From an uncultured bacterium (lineage in GTDB: Bacteria > Acidobacteriota > HRBIN11 > JAKEFK01), in contig CAVZQN010000003.1 in NCBI GenBank assembly GCA_963777505.1, positions 352,001 through 416,000 of the forward strand: a stretch of 64,000 bases of DNA, read 5' to 3'. This document shows, piece by piece, positions 3,051 to 21,973 of the stretch. The translations under genes were made by a program, and so were the position numbers. Each line of letters begins with the position of its first letter. Positions within the stretch are counted from its first letter, which is position 1. The notes below the pieces were generated by a model, which saw only the letters and a list, made by a program, of their open reading frames with translations, did no database searches and was not told the DNA's origin.

Positions 3051-3829
3051 AGAAAGCCCTTCTGTTCGCTATCATTCTTTCCATTTGTTCAATCGCATTC
3101 GCTGAGATGACTGTCTTTTTCAAAGACGGCACATCAGTTACTGTAACGAAAATCGTATTCAAGGGAAATGTAGCTGAACTTTTTCTCATGAATGGAAAGA
3201 CCCGCAATGTTGCAGCAGACAAAATTGATTTGAAAGCGAGCGGTATTCCTAAAGCTGAAGGAAGTTATGGACAGGCAGGCCTTTCTTCCAATGCACGCGA
3301 AACGCGTACTGCAACCCCGCCACTTATTGGAGATTCAAAACAACGGCAACTCGCGTTAAAAGAAGAATGGGACAAAGCTGAACAATCGGCTGTGGCCTTA
3401 AAAACAATTGGTTCAATACGACAAGGAGACATTGTCAGGATCGTTAACCGGGCCGCTTCAGGCTCGACTCCTGCTCCTCCTCCTTCTGATTATGAATCTC
3501 TTGAGGATTTTGATGTAGAGTCGCTTCAAGAAGGTACCTTCATGCAAACGAAGGATGAACCCTTCCTGGTAATCTTCAAAACTGCGGAAGGAATTTATGG
3601 CAAGAAACTCTTTGACACGGCAACCTTCCATTCCAACTTTAGTATCAATGAAAAGGCCACTGAACCTCCGCCTGCGATCGTTAAAGTTCCTGAACCGACA
3701 ATAAAGATTCCGAATCCAGAAGAAACTCCTGTTAAGACTGAACCTTTGCCCTCACCGGAGCCATCGATACAAGAAGAAGAGGCAGCAACAACGGTGCCTG
3801 AAGAAACAGAAACACTCAAACAAAAGTGA
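3047..3829 (+). CDS. Exported hypothetical protein with Pro/Glu-rich C-terminus
   Basis: ATGA overlap with the upstream stop, RBS GGAGG, signal peptide MKKALLFAIILSICSIAFA, 'VFFKDG' beta start. May be fused to the next ORF. Confidence 0.75.
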   Translation: MKKALLFAIILSICSIAFAEMTVFFKDGTSVTVTKIVFKGNVAELFLMNGKTRNVAADKIDLKASGIPKAEGSYGQAGLSSNARETRTATPPLIGDSKQRQLALKEEWDKAEQSAVALKTIGSIRQGDIVRIVNRAASGSTPAPPPSDYESLEDFDVESLQEGTFMQTKDEPFLVIFKTAEGIYGKKLFDTATFHSNFSINEKATEPPPAIVKVPEPTIKIPNPEETPVKTEPLPSPEPSIQEEEAATTVPEETETLKQK

Positions 3830-14577: not shown

Positions 14578-15375
14578 ATGTTGATGGTTCCGTTGAGTGT
14601 GTTGAGTGGTGATACGGGATTGCTGGACAAGGATAGCCGGGAACGCATCAGGGTATTAATCATTGATGCTGAACGCGTCGAACGTGAACGTGTTGGCGAA
14701 ATGCTTAAAGAAGACCCGGGTGTAGAAGTTATTGGTGAATATGACAACGGTATCGAAGCTCTAGCTGCAATCCGAAATCTTCATCCTGATCTGATCATTC
14801 TGGATATCCATATTCCAGGAATTGACGGATTTTCACTTCTTGAATCTATTCCAAGGGATCGTCTTCCCGCTGTCATTTTTGTCACCGCTTTCGACCGGTA
14901 TGCCCTTCGAGCATTTGAAGTTTCTGCTCTTGATTATCTTTTGAAACCGTTTGGTATCGATCGATTCCGTAAAGCAATGCGTCGAGCAAAAGTTCAAATG
15001 AAAAGGGGAAAAGTTGAAGAAGAAAAGAGAGAAATTGACCGAATTGCAATCAGAACAGGTAAGAAGGTCTTTTTTCTAAAGTCGGAAGAAATTGATTGGA
15101 TTGAAGCTGAAGGGAATAGCGTCAGGTTACATAGTGGACAACAATCTCACGTGATTCGCACTTCTATCAGTTTGTTGGAATCGGAACTAGATTCCGAAAA
15201 ATTCGTAAGAATACATAGATCAACAATTGTAAATGTGGATCGAGTTCGATGGCTTGAACCATCAGCTCATGGAAACTACCGCGTAATCCTGCACGATGGT
15301 ACTCAGTTGGTTCTAAGCAGGAAGGACAAGCTTTCTCAAGTAACGGGCAATTCGCTTCGGGATCATGCAAGATGA
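14578..15375 (+). CDS. LytTR-family response regulator (orphan; start may be ATG 14584)
   Basis: Receiver with LDIHIPGIDG, FVTAF, DYLLKPF; LytTR domain FVRIHRSTIVN. Confidence 0.93.
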   Translation: MLMVPLSVLSGDTGLLDKDSRERIRVLIIDAERVERERVGEMLKEDPGVEVIGEYDNGIEALAAIRNLHPDLIILDIHIPGIDGFSLLESIPRDRLPAVIFVTAFDRYALRAFEVSALDYLLKPFGIDRFRKAMRRAKVQMKRGKVEEEKREIDRIAIRTGKKVFFLKSEEIDWIEAEGNSVRLHSGQQSHVIRTSISLLESELDSEKFVRIHRSTIVNVDRVRWLEPSAHGNYRVILHDGTQLVLSRKDKLSQVTGNSLRDHAR

Positions 15376-15405
15376 AAAGGATTGAATTGCATCTTCCATG
15401 ATCCG

Positions 15406-15474
15406 GGAGCCTCATGGCTCTTTCTTAGAAGAGAGAAATTTTAGCGGCGGTCCGAATGGGCCGCCGTTTTTTTT
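15406..15474 (+). ncRNA. Candidate antisense sRNA, sibling 1 (3' of lytTR)
   Basis: GGAGCCTCATGGCTC-N5-TAG-AAGAGAGA plus terminator, shared with 18774-18836(-). 15411-15431 is complementary to the TBDR RBS/start. Confidence 0.55.
15444..15474 (+). terminator. Intrinsic terminator
   Basis: GCGGCGGTCC-GAAT-GGGCCGCCGT followed by a T run. Confidence 0.85.
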
Positions 15475-15495
15475 ACCGCAGAGACTTTGAGTCTT
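15471..15495 (+). repeat. 25-bp direct repeat, copy 1 (ACCGCAGAG family)
   Basis: TTTTACCGCAGAGACTTTGAGTCTT, identical to 16558-16582. Confidence 0.85.
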
Positions 15496-16532
15496 TAGGC
15501 GGGTTCAGCTTCAACGATACTATATGGTGATTTTGTCGGAACTATTCTTGTTAGACTGAAACCGGATGTTGCAAGCAAGTTGCTGTACTCACTTGCGGTG
15601 CGTTCTTTTCCGCCCTCCATGACAAGCATCAGAAGGTCAAGTGCTTTAGCCGGACTAGGCTGGTTGTCTTCAGGAACGACCATTTCAATAATTAAGACTT
15701 TACCCTTTCCACTGATAGCAGCACGGATATTCTGAAGGATTTTGATGCTTTGTTCGTCGTCCCAGTCATGGATTATGTGTTTCATCATATAGGCATCCGC
15801 ACCTGCCGGAATTGTTTTGAAAAAGTCACCTGATGCGAGTTCAACGCGCTTGCTAACACCTTCCTTGTTGAGCAATTCCTTAGCTGCGTCAATGACATGA
15901 GGCAAATCAAATAAGATTCCATTCATGTGGGGATTCATTTTCAAGATTCTGGCTAGGAGGAGTCCATGACCGCCAGCTATATCAACGAGTTTATGAACGT
16001 CAGAAAAATTGTAGGCTTCGACAATGGCAGGCATTACATTTTGCGATATATTTGTCATCGCGCGATAAAAAATCTGTCCGGCTTCCGCGTTTTGTTTGAA
16101 ATACTCAAAAGAACTCATGCCCTGAACTTTATCGTGTGCAATGCCGCCAGTTCTCACGCTATACATCAGCTCGCCCCAGGCACTCCAAAGCCAATGTTCG
16201 TCTATCATAATCGCAAAGTCGCGCATTGAATTAGGTACATCACTTCGCAACAATGTAGCAACCGGTGTCAATTCAAACTTCTGTTTGGAGGTTTCCGAAA
16301 AGATGCCGACGCTTGCCAAAGTACGAAGGAGGCGGTACAAAGACGGTTCGTGTGCTTCTGTTGTGGCTGCGAGTTCCGCGATGGTTTGAGGGCCTTCGGC
16401 GAGTAAATCGGCAATCCTGAGTTTTGCAGCAACACAAATGCTTTTCTGCATTAACGCTCCAAAGAGCAGTTGCATCAAGATCGCGTCAGGCGGTGGCGCA
16501 TTTACATCACTATTTTGATTCTGATCAATCAT
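15495..16532 (-). CDS. SAM-dependent O-methyltransferase (dimerisation domain + Methyltransf_2)
   Basis: LYRLLRTL, VDIAGGHG, FDLPHV, GDFF, KHIIHDWDD, GGKERT. Confidence 0.94.
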   Translation of the reverse strand: MIDQNQNSDVNAPPPDAILMQLLFGALMQKSICVAAKLRIADLLAEGPQTIAELAATTEAHEPSLYRLLRTLASVGIFSETSKQKFELTPVATLLRSDVPNSMRDFAIMIDEHWLWSAWGELMYSVRTGGIAHDKVQGMSSFEYFKQNAEAGQIFYRAMTNISQNVMPAIVEAYNFSDVHKLVDIAGGHGLLLARILKMNPHMNGILFDLPHVIDAAKELLNKEGVSKRVELASGDFFKTIPAGADAYMMKHIIHDWDDEQSIKILQNIRAAISGKGKVLIIEMVVPEDNQPSPAKALDLLMLVMEGGKERTASEYSNLLATSGFSLTRIVPTKSPYSIVEAEPA

Positions 16533-16557
16533 GTCTTACCCCCACATTTGAATATTA

Positions 16558-16582
16558 TTTTACCGCAGAGACTTTGAGTCTT
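16558..16582 (+). repeat. 25-bp direct repeat, copy 2
   Basis: Identical to 15471-15495. Confidence 0.85.
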
Positions 16583-18656
16583 AGCGGTTGAGTTTTTGAC
16601 GGGCGGATTCGATTCGTGCTGCATGAATATTCGGATCGGCATAAGTAATGAAATTTTGATATGCCTGTTTAGATTCATCAGTTCTTCCCATGCGTTCCAA
16701 AATAATTCCAAGATTGTAATAAGCTTCAGCAAAATTAGGATTTTTTTCCAGCGCTTTTCGCAGTAATTCTTCCGCTCCACTCAAATCACCTTGTTGGCCT
16801 TTTAATATTGCCAGCGAGTAATATGGGTGTGCCAGGGATGGATTAAACTGAATTGCACGTTCAAATTGTTCGGATGCGCCTACAAGGTTCCCCAAATTCC
16901 GGTATGTATTTCCCAGTTCGTACGCTGCAGCCGCATTTCTAGGGTCCAGTTCCAAACTCTTTTGTAAATATGGAATCGCTTCTTGTGGCCTTCCGGATAC
17001 TGTTAAGGTTTCACCCAAATTTACAAGTGCTTCTTGCATTTCCGGATCAATTTGTAACGCAAGTTTTTCTTCCACTATCGATTTTTCAATATCACCGATT
17101 CGTTTAAAGCCAAGAGCTAACCTGTGATGGATTTTGTTATCTTCTGGTGTGAGCTGAAGCGCCTTCTGCCAATATTGAACCGCTTTTTCGGGATTTTCTT
17201 TAATTACAAATTGACCCAGCGTATCGAGTAAAACTGGATTACTGGCATCCATTTGCGAGGCTCGCTCCAAAAGTTCAATTGCCTCATTCTGTTTTCCTTC
17301 CATACTCAGAAACGTTGAACGTTCGTATAACTTCCACACCTCAATTTTACTTTTCGGATCAGGAAGATTCTCCAGGTTCTTTGGCTTAGTTGTGCCAGAC
17401 AAATATCCCAGGCTGCGAAGGTTTTCTTCAAGTGCTGGATCCATCTTTGTATCCTGGGCCGGCGGCTGGATCTTTTTGTACTTTTGCAATTTATCCGCAA
17501 TGCTTCGCACAGCTTGATTATTTATTTCTTGAATGTTGGTTTTTTCATGAGGATCTGCTTTGAGGTTGTACACTTCAGGCTGTGGAGCATCAATCACTTT
17601 CCATTCTGTTGTTCTTGCCGAATGCAAAGGACTCCAACCAATTCCAAGCGGATAATGCGTTTCAAGAATAGCGGGAACTTCACCCAGGGATTTTCCTGAA
17701 AGCATAGGCACTAATGATCTTCCATCAAGACCTTGAGGCTTTTCACTTCCAGCAAGTTCCAGGAGTGTTGGTGCAACATCAATCAATTGAACTTGCTGAA
17801 GTATTTCTTTGCCCGAGGTTATGCTTGGACCCGCCATTACAAATGGAATCTGAATTGTAGAATCATACAAAAAAAGGCCATGACCTAGTTCATCATGATC
17901 TCCCAATCCTTCCCCATGATCGGCAGTGATGAGAATGATTGTTCTATTTCGAACAGCGTCCAGCGATTTGATAATCTTGCCGATTTGTTCATCGACATAT
18001 GCAATTTCACCCAGATACTGATTCGAATAATTCGAACGGTATGGCTCAGGAGGGTTATATCTTGCATGAGGATCATAAAAATGAATGAACAGAAAAAAAG
18101 AGGATTGCTGATTGGAAGACAGCCAGTTTATTGCTTCCGAAGCTGTCGTATCAGCAAGGCGTTCATTTTGTGGATTGTTTGAATCCTGCGCGCCGTACTG
18201 AATGAAGTCGTCGTAAAATTCAAATCCGTTAGAAAGTCCAAACCTGTGATCCAGCACGATGCTGCTTACAAATCCGGCAGTCTTGTAGCCTTTCGACTGT
18301 AACAATGAAGGCAAGGTTGCAACAGTTGGATTTAAGCGGTAGCCATGGTTGTCGCGAATTCCATGTTTTGCTGGTAACAGTCCAGTCAGCAGTGATGCAT
18401 GTGATGGAAGAGTTAATGGTACGTGTGCTATGGCATTTTTGAAAACGATTCCGGATCGACCTAATGCATCAATGTTTGGAGTTCGAACTTGCTGATTGCC
18501 ATAAATTCCAATCGAGTCGGCTCGCGTCGTGTCGATTGAAATGAGTACAAAATTCAGTTTTGGATTTTCGGCAGCAGGCTGTGGCTTTTTCCAATAAAAC
18601 AAAACCGCAAAGACGGCAATCAGAATAAAAAGAATTAGCGCAATCTTATTTCGCAA
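16581..18656 (-). CDS. Sulfatase/alkaline-phosphatase-superfamily protein with C-terminal TPRs
   Basis: N-terminal TM, ISIDTTRAD, PLTLPSHASLLTG, YDPH, ADHGE, LRSLGY, then TPRs. TTG start. Confidence 0.92.
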   Translation of the reverse strand: MRNKIALILFILIAVFAVLFYWKKPQPAAENPKLNFVLISIDTTRADSIGIYGNQQVRTPNIDALGRSGIVFKNAIAHVPLTLPSHASLLTGLLPAKHGIRDNHGYRLNPTVATLPSLLQSKGYKTAGFVSSIVLDHRFGLSNGFEFYDDFIQYGAQDSNNPQNERLADTTASEAINWLSSNQQSSFFLFIHFYDPHARYNPPEPYRSNYSNQYLGEIAYVDEQIGKIIKSLDAVRNRTIILITADHGEGLGDHDELGHGLFLYDSTIQIPFVMAGPSITSGKEILQQVQLIDVAPTLLELAGSEKPQGLDGRSLVPMLSGKSLGEVPAILETHYPLGIGWSPLHSARTTEWKVIDAPQPEVYNLKADPHEKTNIQEINNQAVRSIADKLQKYKKIQPPAQDTKMDPALEENLRSLGYLSGTTKPKNLENLPDPKSKIEVWKLYERSTFLSMEGKQNEAIELLERASQMDASNPVLLDTLGQFVIKENPEKAVQYWQKALQLTPEDNKIHHRLALGFKRIGDIEKSIVEEKLALQIDPEMQEALVNLGETLTVSGRPQEAIPYLQKSLELDPRNAAAAYELGNTYRNLGNLVGASEQFERAIQFNPSLAHPYYSLAILKGQQGDLSGAEELLRKALEKNPNFAEAYYNLGIILERMGRTDESKQAYQNFITYADPNIHAARIESARQKLNR

Positions 18657-18688
18657 ATCTAAAGCTTAAGTCAAAGATGCCATAGGTG

Positions 18689-18761
18689 GTAGGGGCGACC
18701 CTTGTGGTCGCCCGTGTGCTCGTGTACATATCTTAAGGGCGGCCACAAGGGCCGCCCCTAC
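18689..18761. repeat. Inverted pair of GTAG-family REP elements (REPIN/BIME-like)
   Basis: GTAGGGGCGACCCTTGTGGTCGCCC (18689-18713) and GGGCGGCCACAAGGGCCGCCCCTAC (18737-18761). Confidence 0.85.
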
Positions 18762-18773
18762 GAGTGCGGTAAT

Positions 18774-18803
18774 AAAAAAAGGGCGATCTAGAAGATCGCC
18801 CTT
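18774..18803 (-). terminator. Intrinsic terminator
   Basis: On the minus strand: AAGGGCGATCT-TCT-AGATCGCCC followed by T7. Confidence 0.85.
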
Positions 18804-18836
18804 AGTCTCTCTTTTACGTTGGAGCCATGAGGCTCC
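18774..18836 (-). ncRNA. Candidate antisense sRNA, sibling 2 (3'-UTR of TBDR)
   Basis: Minus strand GGAGCCTCATGGCTC-N5-TAA-AAGAGAGA plus terminator. 18811-18831 is complementary to the TBDR RBS/start. Confidence 0.55.
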
Positions 18837-18884
18837 TGAGACATACAACCCTGTATGCCTCAGGTGCTTCGTGGTTTTAAGAAG

Positions 18885-18912
18885 CGGGAGCACCTGGCGC
18901 GATGCTCCCGCC
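18885..18912. other. GC-rich hairpin just after the TBDR stop
   Basis: GCGGGAGCA...TGCTCCCGC; only a weak U-tract on the minus strand. Confidence 0.6.
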
Positions 18913-18922
18913 CAAAAACAAC

Positions 18923-21838
18923 TTAGAAGCTGTAACGCAAACCAACGCGCAGTGCGCGCGGTGAAATTAATTCGTCGATACGGTTCAAGTTCTGTGAAGT
19001 AACTGTCCGTGTGCGTCGAATAATTGTGTTGGTGTTCGTTACGTTAAATAAATTGGCCGAAAGAGCTAAACGCCCGTAGTTACCAAATTCGAATCCTTTT
19101 TCAAACTGTAAATCCAGAGTGAAAATATTTTCGAAACGGCGGCTGCCGAACGGTTCGACAAGAATCAAATGAGTTTGGGTGCCAAGCGAAGGCAAAGTTG
19201 GATCGCCAATAGGTGCCATCAGCACGAATGGATAACCTTGCTGGTACCGTCCGAAAGCGCCCGCTGTAATATCCCAGCCGAACTGATACACACCACTCAA
19301 TTTAAATTGCCATTCTGAATATGGATATACGCCCGATTTACCGCTGCCACCTGGAGCAAACGCATAAGCTTGATCATTCAGGAAAGGCAAATTTGTTGGA
19401 TCAAACGGGAAGACCTGGCCATTCAATCCGCCATCTCCGATGTAGAAGGCGAGGGAATCGCCGCCATCGTAATTCGCTTTTTGTCGTTGCAGAGTAACTC
19501 CACCATTGAGCATGAAGTTATTGCTCATGCGTTTGCGAACTGCGATGTCAACTCCATCATATTTTGTCTTGTAGTCGTTTGCGTTTGTCAGGAGAAGATC
19601 CCCATTGTCAACGCCGCCATAAACAAAATATGGAACGTTAAATGATCCGAGAGTTGTATCGGCCGTAAAAACTCCTCCTGGTACAAAATCAGCAGCTGAT
19701 ACTCCATTCGAAACGATAGTCGTTGCATCACGATAGTCACGATGTGTGTATGTCGCGCTTACCGAAATATCCTGCGCGAGCTGTCGTTCGAATCCCACCA
19801 AGTATTCCCAGGAACTGGAATTCTTAAAATCTGAGTCGATTACGTTGTTATCTACAAACGATTGGAGGTCAAAGATCGGTCCGTTTAAACCACCGAAATA
19901 CCTGGGTGCGCTAGTAATTTCATCAGGAGTAATGACACGATCACCATTTAGGTTTACGAAATCCATAATCGCGCCGTTATACACATAGGTCGGATTTTGA
20001 AGTTGCACAAAAGCCGGATTAAATCCATCGTAATAACGTGCGAAATTTCCGCGAACAATTGTCTTTCCATCGCCAGACATATCATAGGTCGCACCGATGC
20101 GTGGAGAGAAATCGTTGAAGGAGATTCCTGGATCTCCACCTGGATATTCCAGAGGGCCGACTATGTTTTCAAATCCTGGTACTCCAGGAATTGATGATGC
20201 TATGTTCGATCCTGTTTGGTTATCAAAGCGGAAACCAAGATTTAAGGTCAAACGGTCTTTACGGAAAGTATCCGTAACATAGAAACTTGTGTGATTCAGA
20301 TCCACACGTCCATCAATTGCGTGTTGAGCTTTCACATACCCAGAAGTTAGAGGACCACGCGGAGAAGTCTGGTTGTAATCAACGATCAATACACCATTAC
20401 CGTAAGAGCTAAAAGTGTGAAGTTCGGACGTTTTGTATTCGAATCCAAACCTGAATTCATGATCACCACCCATAACATTTTCTGAGAAGTAGTTTGCGTC
20501 TACAACAAAGTCATGTGATGGACGATCGATCGGCGCAACATAAAACAGGGTGTCTTCATAACGTGGAATGGACGCTAAATACACCATCGGGATGTCCTTT
20601 CCGCCAACCGGCTTCAAAGTAAATCCGAGACCGATATACCCATAACGTCCGGTTACGATCGTATGATCGTTGGGAATCCATGTATGCTGACCGGTCCAAA
20701 TTCCTGGTGTAATGGTATCTGTCCCAGCCTGATCCCATAATGTTTCAGGAGCTTGCAAGGAGATTGCAATTCCTGCGCGACCGGTCTTTGATTTTTCACC
20801 CTGGAAGTAACCAAATTGCGATTCATGCGCAGTTCCCCAGTTCGCATTCGCTTTGAAGTTGAAATCTTCAAGTTCGGTGAAATCAAATGTATTTGCAGTA
20901 GTAATCAATCCGATTTCGTTTTTGCGATACGCGCCCCAGACAAATAATTTGTCTTTGATGATTGGACCACCGATATCGAAACCATAGTCTTTTACCTCAT
21001 CGAGGCGATTCGACCTGGCGCCGATTGCAGCGAGTTCATCAGGAGTGTTGTCACCCTGCAGGCTATCGCCAGCGTAAAAATAGGAGGCGGCGCCTTCCCA
21101 TTTATTGCTTCCGCGCTTGGTGACAATATTGACAATTACACCGCCTGTCGGTGCTGATGCATCATTACCGCCTGTAGAGATTTGCAATTCCTCAAATGCA
21201 TCGAAATCGAAATAGGTTGGCGATGCTCCTAATGCGCCTGGATCGGTTGCATTAACACCGTCATAGTTCCATACGGTGTTGTCGTCGTTTCCACCACGCG
21301 CAATAAAAGATGCTTGCTGACCCGATTCGGAACCTGCTACGTTGTAACGATCCGAATCGACTCCTGTGGTTTGATCGATGATCGTCCACGGATCACGTGC
21401 ACTTGGTACATCTTCCAGATAATCACGATTAAATGATTCTGACGTTCCTGTCTTTTTTGTGTCCACTACCGGTGTTTCACCGATAACTGTGAACTCTTCA
21501 GCCAGCGAAGGTCTCATCGTGATTTCGAGTTGTACCTGACTGCCGGTACTAACTCGAACTTCTTCCTGGCGTACTTCTGTGAAACCTTCAATTGCAAAAT
21601 TCACAGAATAAATTCCAGGAGGTAAGTTAGCGAAACGGAAACTGCCGGAAGCTCCAGACGTCGCGCTTTGCGGTGGCAGTGACGTCGATTCCAGCGTGAT
21701 GCTTACACCAGGTAATGGGCCGCCTTTATCATCAATCGTCTTTCCATAGATTGACCCTGTTTTCATCGACACTTGCGCGAAAACAGGGATTGTAAAGGCG
21801 AGGACCAGAACGAGAGCAAGCAGAAGCTTATTTCTCAT
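18923..21838 (-). CDS. TonB-dependent receptor (Oar-like, CarboxypepD_reg N-terminus)
   Basis: RBS GGAGGAG, signal peptide, GGPLPGVSITL..G.FRF.NLPPG.Y, plug NIVTKRG, FSPRIG, C-terminal GLRYSF. Confidence 0.94.
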   Translation of the reverse strand: MRNKLLLALVLVLAFTIPVFAQVSMKTGSIYGKTIDDKGGPLPGVSITLESTSLPPQSATSGASGSFRFANLPPGIYSVNFAIEGFTEVRQEEVRVSTGSQVQLEITMRPSLAEEFTVIGETPVVDTKKTGTSESFNRDYLEDVPSARDPWTIIDQTTGVDSDRYNVAGSESGQQASFIARGGNDDNTVWNYDGVNATDPGALGASPTYFDFDAFEELQISTGGNDASAPTGGVIVNIVTKRGSNKWEGAASYFYAGDSLQGDNTPDELAAIGARSNRLDEVKDYGFDIGGPIIKDKLFVWGAYRKNEIGLITTANTFDFTELEDFNFKANANWGTAHESQFGYFQGEKSKTGRAGIAISLQAPETLWDQAGTDTITPGIWTGQHTWIPNDHTIVTGRYGYIGLGFTLKPVGGKDIPMVYLASIPRYEDTLFYVAPIDRPSHDFVVDANYFSENVMGGDHEFRFGFEYKTSELHTFSSYGNGVLIVDYNQTSPRGPLTSGYVKAQHAIDGRVDLNHTSFYVTDTFRKDRLTLNLGFRFDNQTGSNIASSIPGVPGFENIVGPLEYPGGDPGISFNDFSPRIGATYDMSGDGKTIVRGNFARYYDGFNPAFVQLQNPTYVYNGAIMDFVNLNGDRVITPDEITSAPRYFGGLNGPIFDLQSFVDNNVIDSDFKNSSSWEYLVGFERQLAQDISVSATYTHRDYRDATTIVSNGVSAADFVPGGVFTADTTLGSFNVPYFVYGGVDNGDLLLTNANDYKTKYDGVDIAVRKRMSNNFMLNGGVTLQRQKANYDGGDSLAFYIGDGGLNGQVFPFDPTNLPFLNDQAYAFAPGGSGKSGVYPYSEWQFKLSGVYQFGWDITAGAFGRYQQGYPFVLMAPIGDPTLPSLGTQTHLILVEPFGSRRFENIFTLDLQFEKGFEFGNYGRLALSANLFNVTNTNTIIRRTRTVTSQNLNRIDELISPRALRVGLRYSF

Positions 21839-21957
21839 GGCTCCTCCATAAAAGGATTATTGGTTAAATACAGTTCAAATTTTTCCGGGTTTAGCTGATT
21901 CACCTTGTGACGGTTGGGCTGAATCATCCGGAATTCGGAACAAACGTTACCGTTTGG

Positions 21958-21973
21958 AGCAAGAGATATGCCA
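21958..21973 (-). promoter_or_regulatory. Sigma54 (-24/-12) promoter of the TBDR
   Basis: Minus strand TGGCATATCTCTTGCT = GG-N10-GC with TGGCA and TTGCT boxes. Confidence 0.8.

What the first reader, a model, noticed from the sequence alone, without database searches (positions are those of the whole stretch)
15406..21854. Two sibling terminator-capped RNAs antisense to the ribosome-binding site of the TonB-dependent receptor
Seen: two 3' regions on opposite strands share one architecture, GGAGCCTCATGGCTC-N5-TAR-AAGAGAGA followed by a GC hairpin and U-tract. Copy 1 is 15406-15474(+), after lytTR; copy 2 is 18774-18836(-), directly after the TBDR gene. The TBDR leader (mRNA CUUUUAUGGAGGAGCCAUGAG, 21834-21854, covering SD and AUG) pairs with both over 21 nt. 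Copy 1 (CUCAUGGCUCUUUCUUAGAAG) gives 17 Watson-Crick, 3 G:U and 1 mismatch. Copy 2 (CUCAUGGCUCCAACGUAAAAG) gives 18 Watson-Crick, 1 G:U and 2 mismatches. The copies differ at 5 of these 21 positions yet both keep pairing, and 4 of the 7 deviations are G:U-tolerated, which suggests selection on RNA pairing. The core folds as GAGCC-UCAU-GGCUC, exposing an anti-AUGA loop. In copy 2 a 13-bp stem (18835-18864) lies just upstream, a possible processing site. Known: 3'-UTR-derived Hfq sRNAs such as OppZ and CarZ repress their own operons, and MicA/RybB/OmrAB repress outer-membrane proteins; ARN-rich tracts and poly-U bind Hfq. Inference: an undescribed sRNA family giving negative feedback (copy 2) and cross-regulation (copy 1) on a sigma54-driven TBDR.
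Basis: partly seen in the sequence, partly recalled or inferred. Interest (0 to 1): 0.88.

Follow-up and report, generated by a model that had tools for sequence, protein, structure and literature searches.

The report
Anti-ribosome-site RNA family at receptor genes
The two look-alike RNA tails are real members of a small, lineage-restricted family of terminator-capped RNA elements whose conserved core is complementary to the ribosome-binding site and start codon of certain outer-membrane receptor genes, so they probably act as small regulatory RNAs, although no expression data exist yet.

Summary

They are not a pair. A covariance model finds 5 copies in this genome and 18 in 5 genomes of two genera. 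It finds none at E<=1e-4 in the 147 other genomes of a 151-genome phylum sample. All 18 lie in TonB-dependent receptor (TBDR) or LytTR loci.

Only the core CUCAUGGCUC and the terminator are conserved. The proposed GAGCC/GGCUC hairpin is not.

Among 14,721 candidate start regions of the genome, all five elements pair best with one site. That site is the SD/AUG of a TBDR paralogue outside the window (T2, -34 to -44 kcal/mol). The window's TBDR (T1) ranks second for four of the five.

Element and target motif co-occur across genomes, and part of the pairing tracks a lineage-specific 4-nt indel.

Best reading, about 0.6: a new multicopy base-pairing sRNA family that represses T2/T1 translation. 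It works like Bacteroides FopS or Caulobacter ChvR but matches no Rfam family.

No RNA evidence was obtainable. Mechanism, Hfq dependence and direction of regulation are inferred.

The parts
15405..15474 (+). Element copy 1, in the 3'UTR of the RR-LytTR gene. Seed CUCAUGGCUC at 15411-15420. In-frame TAG at 15426-15428. AAGAGAGA at 15429-15436. Terminator stem at 15443-15468 with a U-run to 15474.
   Evidence: Sequence. Terminator scan. Covariance-model hit E 1.4e-15. The G001 orthologue sits in the same position after the RR-LytTR orthologue.
18774..18836 (-). Element copy 2, in the 3'UTR of TBDR T1. Seed at 18831-18822. TAA at 18816-18814. AAGAGAGA at 18813-18806. Terminator stem at 18803-18779 with a U-run at 18780-18774.
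   Evidence: Sequence. Terminator scan. Covariance-model hit E 2.0e-16. 38 of 39 positions are identical to the G001 orthologue.
18835..18864 (-). 13-bp stem-loop directly 5' of copy 2. It could be a protective 5' hairpin or a processing determinant.
   Evidence: Fold. It is kept in the cofold with targets. A stem is also present at the same place in G001, with different stem letters. An analogous stem precedes the T6-type elements.
18882..18913 (-). G+C-rich hairpin just after the TBDR stop codon. It is followed only by CUUCUUAAAA. Its role is unknown. If it terminates transcription, copy 2 would need read-through.
   Evidence: Fold. Not reported as a terminator by the scan.
18923..21838 (-). 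TBDR paralogue T1 (971 aa; CarboxypepD_reg, Plug, OMP_b-brl_4). It is the host mRNA of copy 2 and the second-best predicted target.
   Evidence: ORF. Pfam. Contigs from RNA libraries of relatives cover only its coding part.
21834..21854 (-). T1 leader site CUUUUAUGGAGGAGCCAUGAG. It covers the SD and the AUG (start codon 21838-21836) and is complementary to all family seeds.
   Evidence: Rank 2 of 14,721 start regions for four of five elements. The covariance model hits its antisense at E 0.0067.
21958..21973 (-). -24/-12 (sigma-54 type) promoter-like motif TGGCAT-N5-TTGCT, about 120 nt upstream of the T1 start.
   Evidence: Sequence. The same motif is upstream of all six close paralogues. An rpoN homologue is present. 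Function is inferred from the consensus only.
14578..15375 (+). Response-regulator gene with a LytTR DNA-binding domain. It is the host transcript of copy 1.
   Evidence: Pfam. The LytTR link recurs: c207 follows a LytTR-only gene, and in genus g3 an element precedes a LytTR-only gene.

Best explanation
The two elements belong to a lineage-restricted, multicopy family of short RNAs. Each has a conserved seed, CUCAUGGCUC(C), then a variable linker or hairpin, then an intrinsic terminator.

The seed and its 3' extension are antisense to the Shine-Dalgarno sequence and start codon of a subset of sigma-54-type TonB-dependent receptor mRNAs. The main target is paralogue T2 (G000:C4:236629). The window's T1 is second.

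When a host transcript is made, the terminator-proximal piece is released or acts in place. It base-pairs with the T2/T1 ribosome-binding site, blocks 30S binding and probably destabilises the mRNA. Host transcripts in this genus are the T1, T4 and T6 receptor mRNAs and two LytTR regulator mRNAs. In the sister genus the element is apparently a stand-alone gene, or lies between the -24/-12 motif and the RBS of a TBDR.

The result would be cross-repression of one receptor paralogue by expression of the others, plus self-limitation of T1.

Shown: the family, its conservation pattern, its genomic contexts, and the genome-wide uniqueness of the complementarity.

Inferred: that a discrete RNA exists, that pairing occurs in vivo, that it represses, and that Hfq or RNase E take part.
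For: 1. Family and selection.
- Model R2 finds 18 elements in G000 (5), G001 (4), G003 (4), G005 (2) and G006 (3).
- In a 151-genome phylum sample, only G000, G001, G003 and G005 had a match at E<=1e-4.
- The core CTCATGGCTC is invariant or nearly so in a 13-member alignment, while the flanks vary.
- The terminator stem is 90% paired, with changes on both sides in 4 of 8 pairs.
- Between G000 and G001 the element is a conservation island: 38 of 39 identical, with flanks diverged or with indels.

2. Target uniqueness.
- In an ungapped scan of all 10.4 million genome positions, the T2 or T1 leader is the best-scoring site that is not the element family's own antisense strand, for each of the four elements tested.
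- RNAduplex of 28-nt seeds was run against 14,721 candidate start regions. T2 ranks 1 for all five elements: -43.9, -40.4, -42.8, -34.3 and -33.7 kcal/mol.
- T1 ranks 2 for four of them and 5 for the fifth. The background mean is -11 to -12.5 with sd 3.2-3.8.
- With full-length folding, the net gain is -25.1 (copy 2 + T2), -15.8 (copy 2 + T1), -21.8 (copy 1 + T2) and -17.7 (copy 1 + T1) kcal/mol. The terminator stays intact.
- The model itself hits the antisense of the T2 leaders (E 4.6e-7 and 1.9e-6) and of the T1 leaders (E 0.007-0.01).

3. Co-evolution.
- The 14-mer GGAGGAGCCATGAG occurs exactly twice in each of G000, G001, G003 and G006. It occurs in none of the 8 class genomes without elements.
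- The T2-type leader is 4 nt shorter in genus g3.
- The g3 element behind a TBDR (G006:C10) carries the matching shorter linker. It pairs at -41.9 with the g3 leader against -32.5 with the g1 leader.
- 6 of 7 g1 elements prefer the g1 leader by 6-11 kcal/mol.
- Outside the degenerate c207 lineage, the three core substitutions are A>G, C>U and C>U. All keep pairing as G:U.

4. Context.
- All 18 elements lie in TBDR or LytTR loci. Eight lie 3' of a TBDR; for one of them (G003:C188) the TBDR is judged from the C-terminal codons only. Four follow a LytTR gene, two lie in a TBDR 5' leader, and four form divergent pairs upstream of a LytTR-only gene plus TBDR.
- The seed is always on the terminator's strand.

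5. Hfq, an RNase E/G homologue and rpoN are encoded.
Against: - There is no transcript evidence. The only RNA libraries found (two soil metatranscriptome contig sets from one study) cover only the TBDR coding region, from relatives 90-99% alike.
- The five or eighteen elements are homologous, so their agreement on T2 is not five independent tests. The complementarity could stem from an old inverted duplication of a leader.
- Lineage-matched extension is seen in only 1 of 7 g3 elements. The other six pair about equally, or better, with the g1 leader.
- G005 has two elements but no T2-type 14-mer. Its assembly is 83% complete in 940 contigs.
- In this genus part of the seed can be held in a 6-bp hairpin.
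- A strong hairpin right after the T1 stop could end transcription before copy 2.
- No sigma-70-like promoter is seen in front of either copy.
- The direction of regulation (repression or activation) and any chaperone dependence are untested.
Confidence: 0.6

Rival explanations
1. Cis-acting 5'-3' UTR pairing (icaR type). The anti-RBS sequence in the 3'UTR folds back on the Shine-Dalgarno region of the same TBDR mRNA. This limits its translation and perhaps creates an RNase III substrate. No separate sRNA is needed.
For: Copy 2 sits on the T1 mRNA and pairs with T1's own SD/AUG over 21 nt. That site ranks 2 of 14,721, with a cofold gain of -15.8 kcal/mol. In the icaR precedent a 3'UTR motif pairs with the SD of the same mRNA (abstract of PMC3868564). 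The T3 paralogue's 3'UTR carries a different anti-SD, GCUCCUCCAUGG, which is conserved in a metagenome relative.
Against: Copy 2 pairs better with T2 in trans (-43.9 against -32.7). The T4-hosted element ranks its own leader 391st. The T6-hosted element forms only about 8 contiguous pairs with its own SD-preceded start; this is a hand count on the sequences, and that start was not among the candidates scored. Four elements follow LytTR genes, and six in genus g3 are not in a TBDR 3'UTR at all.
Confidence: 0.12
2. A conserved 3'-end module with a function other than pairing to TBDR leaders. It could be a protein-binding or RNA-stability/termination element. Alternatively it could be an inverted copy of a TBDR leader spread by duplication, whose complementarity to leaders is historical.
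For: Leaders of all six paralogues share a homologous AUGGAG..AUGA ribosome site. An inverted duplication would therefore automatically be complementary. The terminator stems of many copies are themselves alike (GGCGATC...GATCGCC), which points to common descent. There is no expression or binding data.
Against: Neutral copies should decay. Instead the 10-nt core is invariant or changed only by wobble-compatible transitions in members from two genera, while the flanks are unalignable. The extension matches the T2 leader better than any other paralogue's leader. The G006:C10 element shares the g3 leader's 4-nt shortening. The core always has the same orientation and distance to a terminator.
Confidence: 0.18
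3. A translated mini-ORF (AUG plus three codons plus stop, for example MAPT*, MALS*) that acts as a ribosome decoy or stalling peptide at the mRNA 3' end.
For: In 9 of 15 elements listed, a stop codon lies in frame at codon 5. One of the nine starts with GUG. Some g1 copies have AGGAG 4-6 nt upstream of the start.
Against: Two of the 15 have the stop at codon 6, and 4 have none within the 28 nt. At least six copies have no SD-like sequence upstream. The encoded residues after Ala vary freely. The conserved TAR is equally explained by pairing with the UUA/CUA of the leaders.
Confidence: 0.03

Closest known systems
FopS multicopy sRNA family of Bacteroides thetaiotaomicron (PMC11697453; passages read)
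   Same: FopS has several paralogous copies per genome (14). [quoted passage not shown] Copies are intergenic, antisense or 3'UTR-derived.
   Different: There is no sequence or structure match: no Rfam family reaches its threshold, and the weak hits are other families. The phylum and sigma-factor context differ. Here 8 of 18 copies are embedded in the 3'UTRs of TBDR genes, some shown to be paralogues of the target, whereas 1 of 14 FopS copies is 3'-derived. FopS works with RbpB, and no such link was tested here. Everything here is in silico.
ChvR sRNA repressing the TonB-dependent receptor ChvT in Caulobacter crescentus (PMC6237742; abstract read)
   Same: A trans-acting sRNA whose target is a TBDR mRNA, repressed by direct base pairing. 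It is controlled by a two-component system. Copy 1 here is attached to a response-regulator gene.
   Different: ChvR is a single stand-alone gene with two pairing sites and is Hfq-independent. It is not a multicopy 3'UTR family, and there is no homology.
OppZ/CarZ autoregulatory 3'UTR-derived sRNAs of Vibrio cholerae (review PMC9438474; passages read)
   Same: The sRNA shares the parent operon's terminator and pairs with the parent mRNA, giving negative feedback at 1:1 stoichiometry.
   Different: OppZ targets an internal cistron junction and triggers Rho termination. Here the predicted site is the first gene's SD/AUG. The best target is a paralogue in trans, and most family members do not match their own host.
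icaR 3'UTR-5'UTR interaction in Staphylococcus aureus (PMC3868564; abstract read)
   Same: An anti-SD motif in a 3'UTR is complementary to the SD of the same mRNA.
   Different: See the cis-pairing rival explanation. That model fits T1 only, not the family.

Membership tests
3'UTR-derived base-pairing sRNA (OppZ/CarZ, CpxQ type) | Lies at the 3' end of a protein-coding transcript and shares its intrinsic terminator | tested here: met
   Copies 1 and 2 lie 30 and 86 nt after stop codons and end in 11-bp hairpins with a U-run. No sigma-70-like promoter lies in front of them.
3'UTR-derived base-pairing sRNA (OppZ/CarZ, CpxQ type) | A discrete short RNA released by RNase E processing or made from an internal promoter | not testable with these tools
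   Only RNA-library contigs over the coding region were available. An RNase E/G homologue is encoded.
3'UTR-derived base-pairing sRNA (OppZ/CarZ, CpxQ type) | Conserved seed complementary to a target mRNA, with the target ranking high genome-wide | tested here: met
   T2 ranks 1 for 5 of 5 elements and T1 ranks 2 for 4 of 5, out of 14,721 start regions.
3'UTR-derived base-pairing sRNA (OppZ/CarZ, CpxQ type) | Autoregulation: pairs with its own parent mRNA | tested here: inconclusive
   Met in silico for copy 2 and T1. Not met for the T4-hosted element (own leader rank 391). Weak for the T6-hosted element (hand count).
Hfq-dependent sRNA | Binds Hfq through the 3' U-tail and internal U- or ARN-rich sites | not testable with these tools
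   An Hfq gene is present (88 bits) and the elements have U-tails. The AAGAGAGA tract is also explained by pairing to the T2 leader.
FopS family (Rfam-deposited, Bacteroides) | Match to the family covariance model | tested here: not met
   No Rfam 15 family reaches its gathering score in the window. At E<=1 only SorY, MicX, mir-3170 and suhB appear, far below their thresholds. I could not verify that FopS is in this Rfam release.
FopS family (Rfam-deposited, Bacteroides) | Multicopy paralogues whose seed pairs with TBDR translation initiation regions | tested here: met
   5 copies per genome. The targets are TBDR start regions. This is a functional resemblance only.
icaR-type 5'-3' UTR interaction | The 3'UTR motif pairs with the SD of the same mRNA as the general mode of action | tested here: not met
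   This holds for T1 only. It does not hold for T4 or T6 or for the 10 elements outside TBDR 3'UTRs.
cis-antisense RNA | Encoded on the strand opposite its target | tested here: not met
   The elements lie 3 kb from the T1 leader or on another contig from the T2 leader.
High-copy repeat (REP/MITE) | Many dispersed copies unlinked to function | tested here: not met
   Only 5 copies exist in 5.2 Mb, all at TBDR or LytTR loci. The true REP-like repeat is the neighbouring 18700-18761 sequence.

The most novel reading that the evidence does not exclude
A paralogue-hierarchy circuit written into mRNA ends. Several sigma-54-driven outer-membrane receptor mRNAs, and the LytTR regulators linked to them, each carry a portable anti-RBS cassette (seed plus terminator). 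The cassette silences one hub paralogue (T2, and its sister T1). Switching on any one uptake system therefore shuts the hub receptor off post-transcriptionally. The same cassette has been redeployed during evolution as a 3'UTR tail, as a 5'-leader attenuator product and as a stand-alone gene.
Probability: 0.3. Interest if true: 0.75.

Novelty: new member of a known kind. Interest (0 to 1): 0.5.

Why it matters
If confirmed, this would be a first sRNA family, with a predicted target, for an uncultured soil lineage that is known only from metagenome-assembled genomes.

It would also show that the logic seen in Bacteroides (FopS) and Caulobacter (ChvR), where small RNAs gate TonB-dependent uptake at the ribosome-binding site, arose independently elsewhere. 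The twist here is that many of the regulators ride on the 3' ends of TBDR mRNAs, including paralogues of the target. That offers a simple way to prioritise between similar nutrient-uptake systems.

The prediction is concrete: a 10-nt seed, two named targets and defined compensatory positions. It can be tested in a heterologous reporter without culturing the organism.

Tried and rejected
- **Mismatch search in relatives.** A search for the 15-mer with 1 mismatch in 40 relatives gave hits at about the chance rate: 18 hits in relatives against 11 for the backwards-read control. It was uninformative and was replaced by covariance models.
- **Model R1.** R1 included the GGAGCC/GGCUCC hairpin. Because that hairpin is not conserved, it was superseded by R2.
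- **False positives.** The R2 hits in G007 and G009 are bare terminators without the core and were dropped from all counts.
- **Alignment A3.** A3 contained one reverse-strand terminator hit and was not used.
- **Expression.** One run search found only two soil metatranscriptome contig sets from one study, holding 0.09 and 0.06 of the sampled words. When laid, they cover parts of 18932-21882 only, with nothing over either element. This says nothing either way about the RNAs.
- **Metagenome and genome collections.** Scans with the T1 protein gave 5 loci (3 close) and 6 loci (all in G001). This was too few for a formal covariation test. One of them, L128, carries a T6-type element.
- **ORFs on the opposite strand.** These include the 82-aa ORF 15167-15415(-) and the 75-aa ORF 18666-18893(-). 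The antisense reading frames of the four elements share nothing beyond Met-Arg/Ser, so they were rejected.
- **A cis-antisense gene opposite the T2 leader.** No convincing terminator is present on that strand. This is a hand inspection of the and 82 sequences.
- **LytTR binding repeats.** I looked by eye for them upstream of the g3 stand-alone copies. Nothing was conserved between G003 and G006.
- **Literature.** Six searches found no description of this motif or family. The sequence-string search returned only unrelated primer matches in the 10 of 40 papers listed.
- **Closed or unseen sources.** Supplements were not consulted, so the FopS target lists in that paper's supplementary data were not seen.
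- **Taxonomy.** It was not established. Record titles say only 'uncultured bacterium'.

Full report
**What is in the window.**
Copy 1 (15405-15474, +) begins 30 nt after the stop of a response-regulator gene with a LytTR domain (14578-15375; Pfam). Copy 2 (18836-18774, -) lies 86 nt after the stop of a 971-aa TonB-dependent receptor (18923-21838; CarboxypepD_reg, Plug and OMP_b-brl_4 domains).

Both read GGAGCCTCATGGCTC, then 5 nt, then TAR, then AAGAGAGA. Both end in an 11-bp G+C hairpin with a T-run. The shared 15-mer occurs only at these two places in the 5.23-Mb genome.

They are 17 WC/3 GU/1 mismatch for copy 1 and 18/1/2 for copy 2, with 5 differences between the copies. The 13-bp stem at 18864-18835 folds as stated.

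**It is a family.**
A first covariance model was built from the two copies and two copies in the same-genus genome G001. A second model was built from 13 members.

In the 13 genomes of the class, 22 hits were found in family f1 at E<=0.01. Eighteen are elements: G000 5, G001 4, G003 4, G005 2, G006 3. Four are the reverse strands of receptor leaders (discussed below). Two further hits, in G007 and G009, are bare terminators and were discarded.

In a 151-genome sample of the phylum, only G000, G001, G003 and G005 had hits at E<=1e-4. G006 was not in that sample. One more copy was seen on a metagenome contig (L128).

The family is therefore confined, among the genomes searched, to two genera (g1, g3) of one family. 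It was not found in the family's third genus, g2 (G002 84% complete, G004 93% complete).

**Anatomy and conservation.**
In the 13-member alignment the block CT(C/T)(A/G)TGGC(T/C)C is invariant or nearly so. The sequence 5' of it is unalignable.

Its outer pairs fail in 7-9 of 13 members.

The terminator stem is 90% paired, and 4 of 8 pairs show changes on both sides.

Between G000 and G001 the T1 3'UTR is diverged and carries a 33-column alignment gap. The stretch GTCTCAGGAGCCTC(A/G)TGGCTCCAACGTAAAAGAGAGA is nevertheless 38 of 39 identical. The lytTR 3'UTR shows the same kind of island.

A stem-loop abuts the 5' side of the 3'UTR copies in g1. It is found at the same place in G001 with other stem letters.

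**What the seed matches.**
G000 has six close receptor paralogues, T1 to T6. All have a TGGCA(T/C)-N5-TTGC(T/A) motif upstream, and rpoN is present.

In an ungapped complementarity scan of every genome position, the family's own antisense strands were set aside. The T2 or T1 start region was then the best-scoring site for each of the four elements tested. T2 is at G000:C4:236606-236633 and reads TCTCTCTCTTTTACGGAGGAGCCATGAG.

RNAduplex of the 28-nt seeds was run against 14,721 candidate start regions. These were ORFs of 100 aa or more, taking the first two start codons of each. T2 ranks first for all five G000 elements: -43.9, -40.4, -42.8, -34.3 and -33.7 kcal/mol. The window's T1 ranks second for four and fifth for the degenerate copy c207. 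Background means are -11 to -12.5 with sd 3.2-3.8, and the best unrelated sites are -27 to -31.

Copy 2 pairs with the T2 leader at 24 of the first 26 positions. Copy 1 gives 25 WC + 3 GU of 30. The conserved AAGAGAGA tract is thus complementary to UCUCUCUU of the T2 leader.

When full-length elements and 100-nt leaders are allowed to fold, hybrid formation still gains -16 to -25 kcal/mol and leaves the terminator intact.

The elements hosted by T4 and T6 do not match their own leaders. T4's leader ranks 391. T6 gives about 8 contiguous pairs by hand count on the sequences; its SD-preceded start was not among the scored candidates.

**Comparative evidence for pairing.**
The T2-type leader is identical in G000 and G001. 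In genus g3 (G003, G006) it is the same from AUGGAGGAGCCAUGAG onward but 4 nt shorter upstream.

The 14-mer GGAGGAGCCATGAG is present exactly twice in each of G000, G001, G003 and G006. It is absent from the eight class genomes that lack elements, and also from G005, whose assembly is 83% complete in 940 contigs.

The g3 element that follows a receptor gene (G006:C10) has the correspondingly shorter linker. It pairs at -41.9 with the g3 leader against -32.5 with the g1 leader. Six of seven g1 elements prefer the g1 leader by 6-11 kcal/mol. The other six g3 elements show no such preference.

Core substitutions outside the degenerate c207 lineage are A>G (G001 T1 orthologue), C>U (G001 copy-1 orthologue) and C>U (G003:C127). 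Each turns a Watson-Crick pair with the leader into G:U. The c207 lineage carries disruptive changes.

The family model detects the reverse strand of the T2 leaders at E 4.6e-7 and 1.9e-6, and of the T1 leaders at about 0.007-0.01.

**Genomic contexts.**
- Eight elements follow receptor genes. For one of them, G003:C188, the receptor gene is judged from its C-terminal codons only.
- Four follow LytTR genes. These are copy 1 and its G001 orthologue, and c207 and its G001 orthologue. The last two sit behind a 128-aa LytTR-only gene and upstream of T5.
- In G005 two elements, with their terminators, lie between a -24/-12 motif and the RBS of a receptor gene. This is an attenuator-like or 5'-leader arrangement.
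- In G006 and G003 two elements are arranged back to back. One of them is followed by a LytTR-only gene (Pfam) and then a receptor gene with a -24/-12 motif. By eye, -10-like hexamers lie a few nt before the seed.

The same seed-plus-terminator cassette therefore appears in 3'UTR, 5'-leader and apparently stand-alone settings, always beside receptor or LytTR genes.

**Mechanism proposed.**
The most economical reading is a multicopy base-pairing sRNA family. Its seed occludes the SD and AUG of T2, and more weakly of T1, so that expression of other receptor paralogues or of the LytTR regulators lowers T2/T1 synthesis. Copy 2 would in addition feed back on its own mRNA.

Hfq and an RNase E/G homologue are encoded, but their involvement is inference.

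The cis 5'-3' pairing model (icaR type) fits T1 alone. A non-pairing 3'-end module, or a fossil inverted leader copy, is hard to square with the conservation island, the wobble-only core changes and the indel match, but it is not excluded. A mini-ORF is not a family feature: the stop falls at codon 5 in 9 of 15 members, at codon 6 in 2, and is absent within the 28 nt in 4.

**Comparison with known systems.**
No Rfam family matches.

The closest system in function is the FopS family of Bacteroides thetaiotaomicron. It has 14 paralogous ~65-70-nt sRNAs with a 5' seed and a terminator. They repress SusC-type receptors at the translation initiation region, and one member is 3'-derived (passages of PMC11697453).

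ChvR-ChvT in Caulobacter is a single-gene analogue (abstract). OppZ/CarZ are the autoregulatory 3'UTR precedent (passages of PMC9438474). icaR is the cis precedent (abstract).

The present family works like these but is not a member of any. It is a new sRNA family of a known kind. Its distinctive points are residence in the 3'UTRs of receptor genes, including paralogues of the target, and convergence on one hub paralogue.

**Limits.**
All functional statements are computational. The only RNA data obtainable cover the receptor coding region and come from relatives. The elements share ancestry, so their concordant target ranking is one observation repeated. Only five genomes carry the family, which limits covariation statistics. 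The start-region set is ORF-based, not a curated annotation. The organism is an uncultured lineage and its taxonomy was not named by any tool.

Noticed in passing
window 18700-18761 (minus strand), just downstream of copy 2's terminator: A palindromic REP-like repeat (TAGGGGCGGCCC..., with an inverted partner) has many copies in G000 and in family relatives. About a dozen G000 sites match query positions 340-401. It is distinct from the element.
   Followed up: partly
G000:C3, 3'UTR of paralogue T3 (gene start about 122442, minus strand); also L127 downstream of position 3105: The T3-type receptor 3'UTR carries a different anti-SD sequence, GCTCCTCCATGG, just before its terminator. It is conserved in a metagenome relative. 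This may be a second kind of anti-RBS tail.
   Followed up: partly
window 21838-21850 (minus strand), and leaders of T2, T3, T4, T6: The leaders contain a 4-codon upstream frame, AUG GAG GAG CCA UGA (MEEP*, MEKL*, MEEA* in the paralogues), that overlaps the main AUG. Equivalently it is a small AUGG/CCAU stem presenting the SD. Its meaning is unknown.
   Followed up: no
L041:3016-5939 (G001 orthologue of T1): The orthologous receptor gene reads as two ORFs of 509 and 423 aa, yet its 3' element is 38 of 39 identical to copy 2. This could be a frameshift, an assembly error or a pseudogene. If it is a pseudogene, the element outlives its host gene.
   Followed up: no
window 16581-18656 (minus strand) and L140:10755-13016: Both T1 and T2 are followed by a Sulfatase + TPR protein gene. 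The two loci are paralogous cassettes, which hints at a shared class of substrate.
   Followed up: partly
G005 loci L059:1420-1620 and L047:1450-1650 (minus strand): An element with its terminator lies between a -24/-12 promoter-like motif (TGGTATGGTCGTTGCA) and the RBS of a receptor gene. This looks like a transcription-attenuation or 5'UTR-derived sRNA arrangement.
   Followed up: partly
window 18932-21882: Contigs from two soil RNA libraries of one study, 90-99% alike, cover parts of the receptor coding region. Relatives of this gene are therefore present in those RNA libraries. Contigs cannot show ends or strand.
   Followed up: yes
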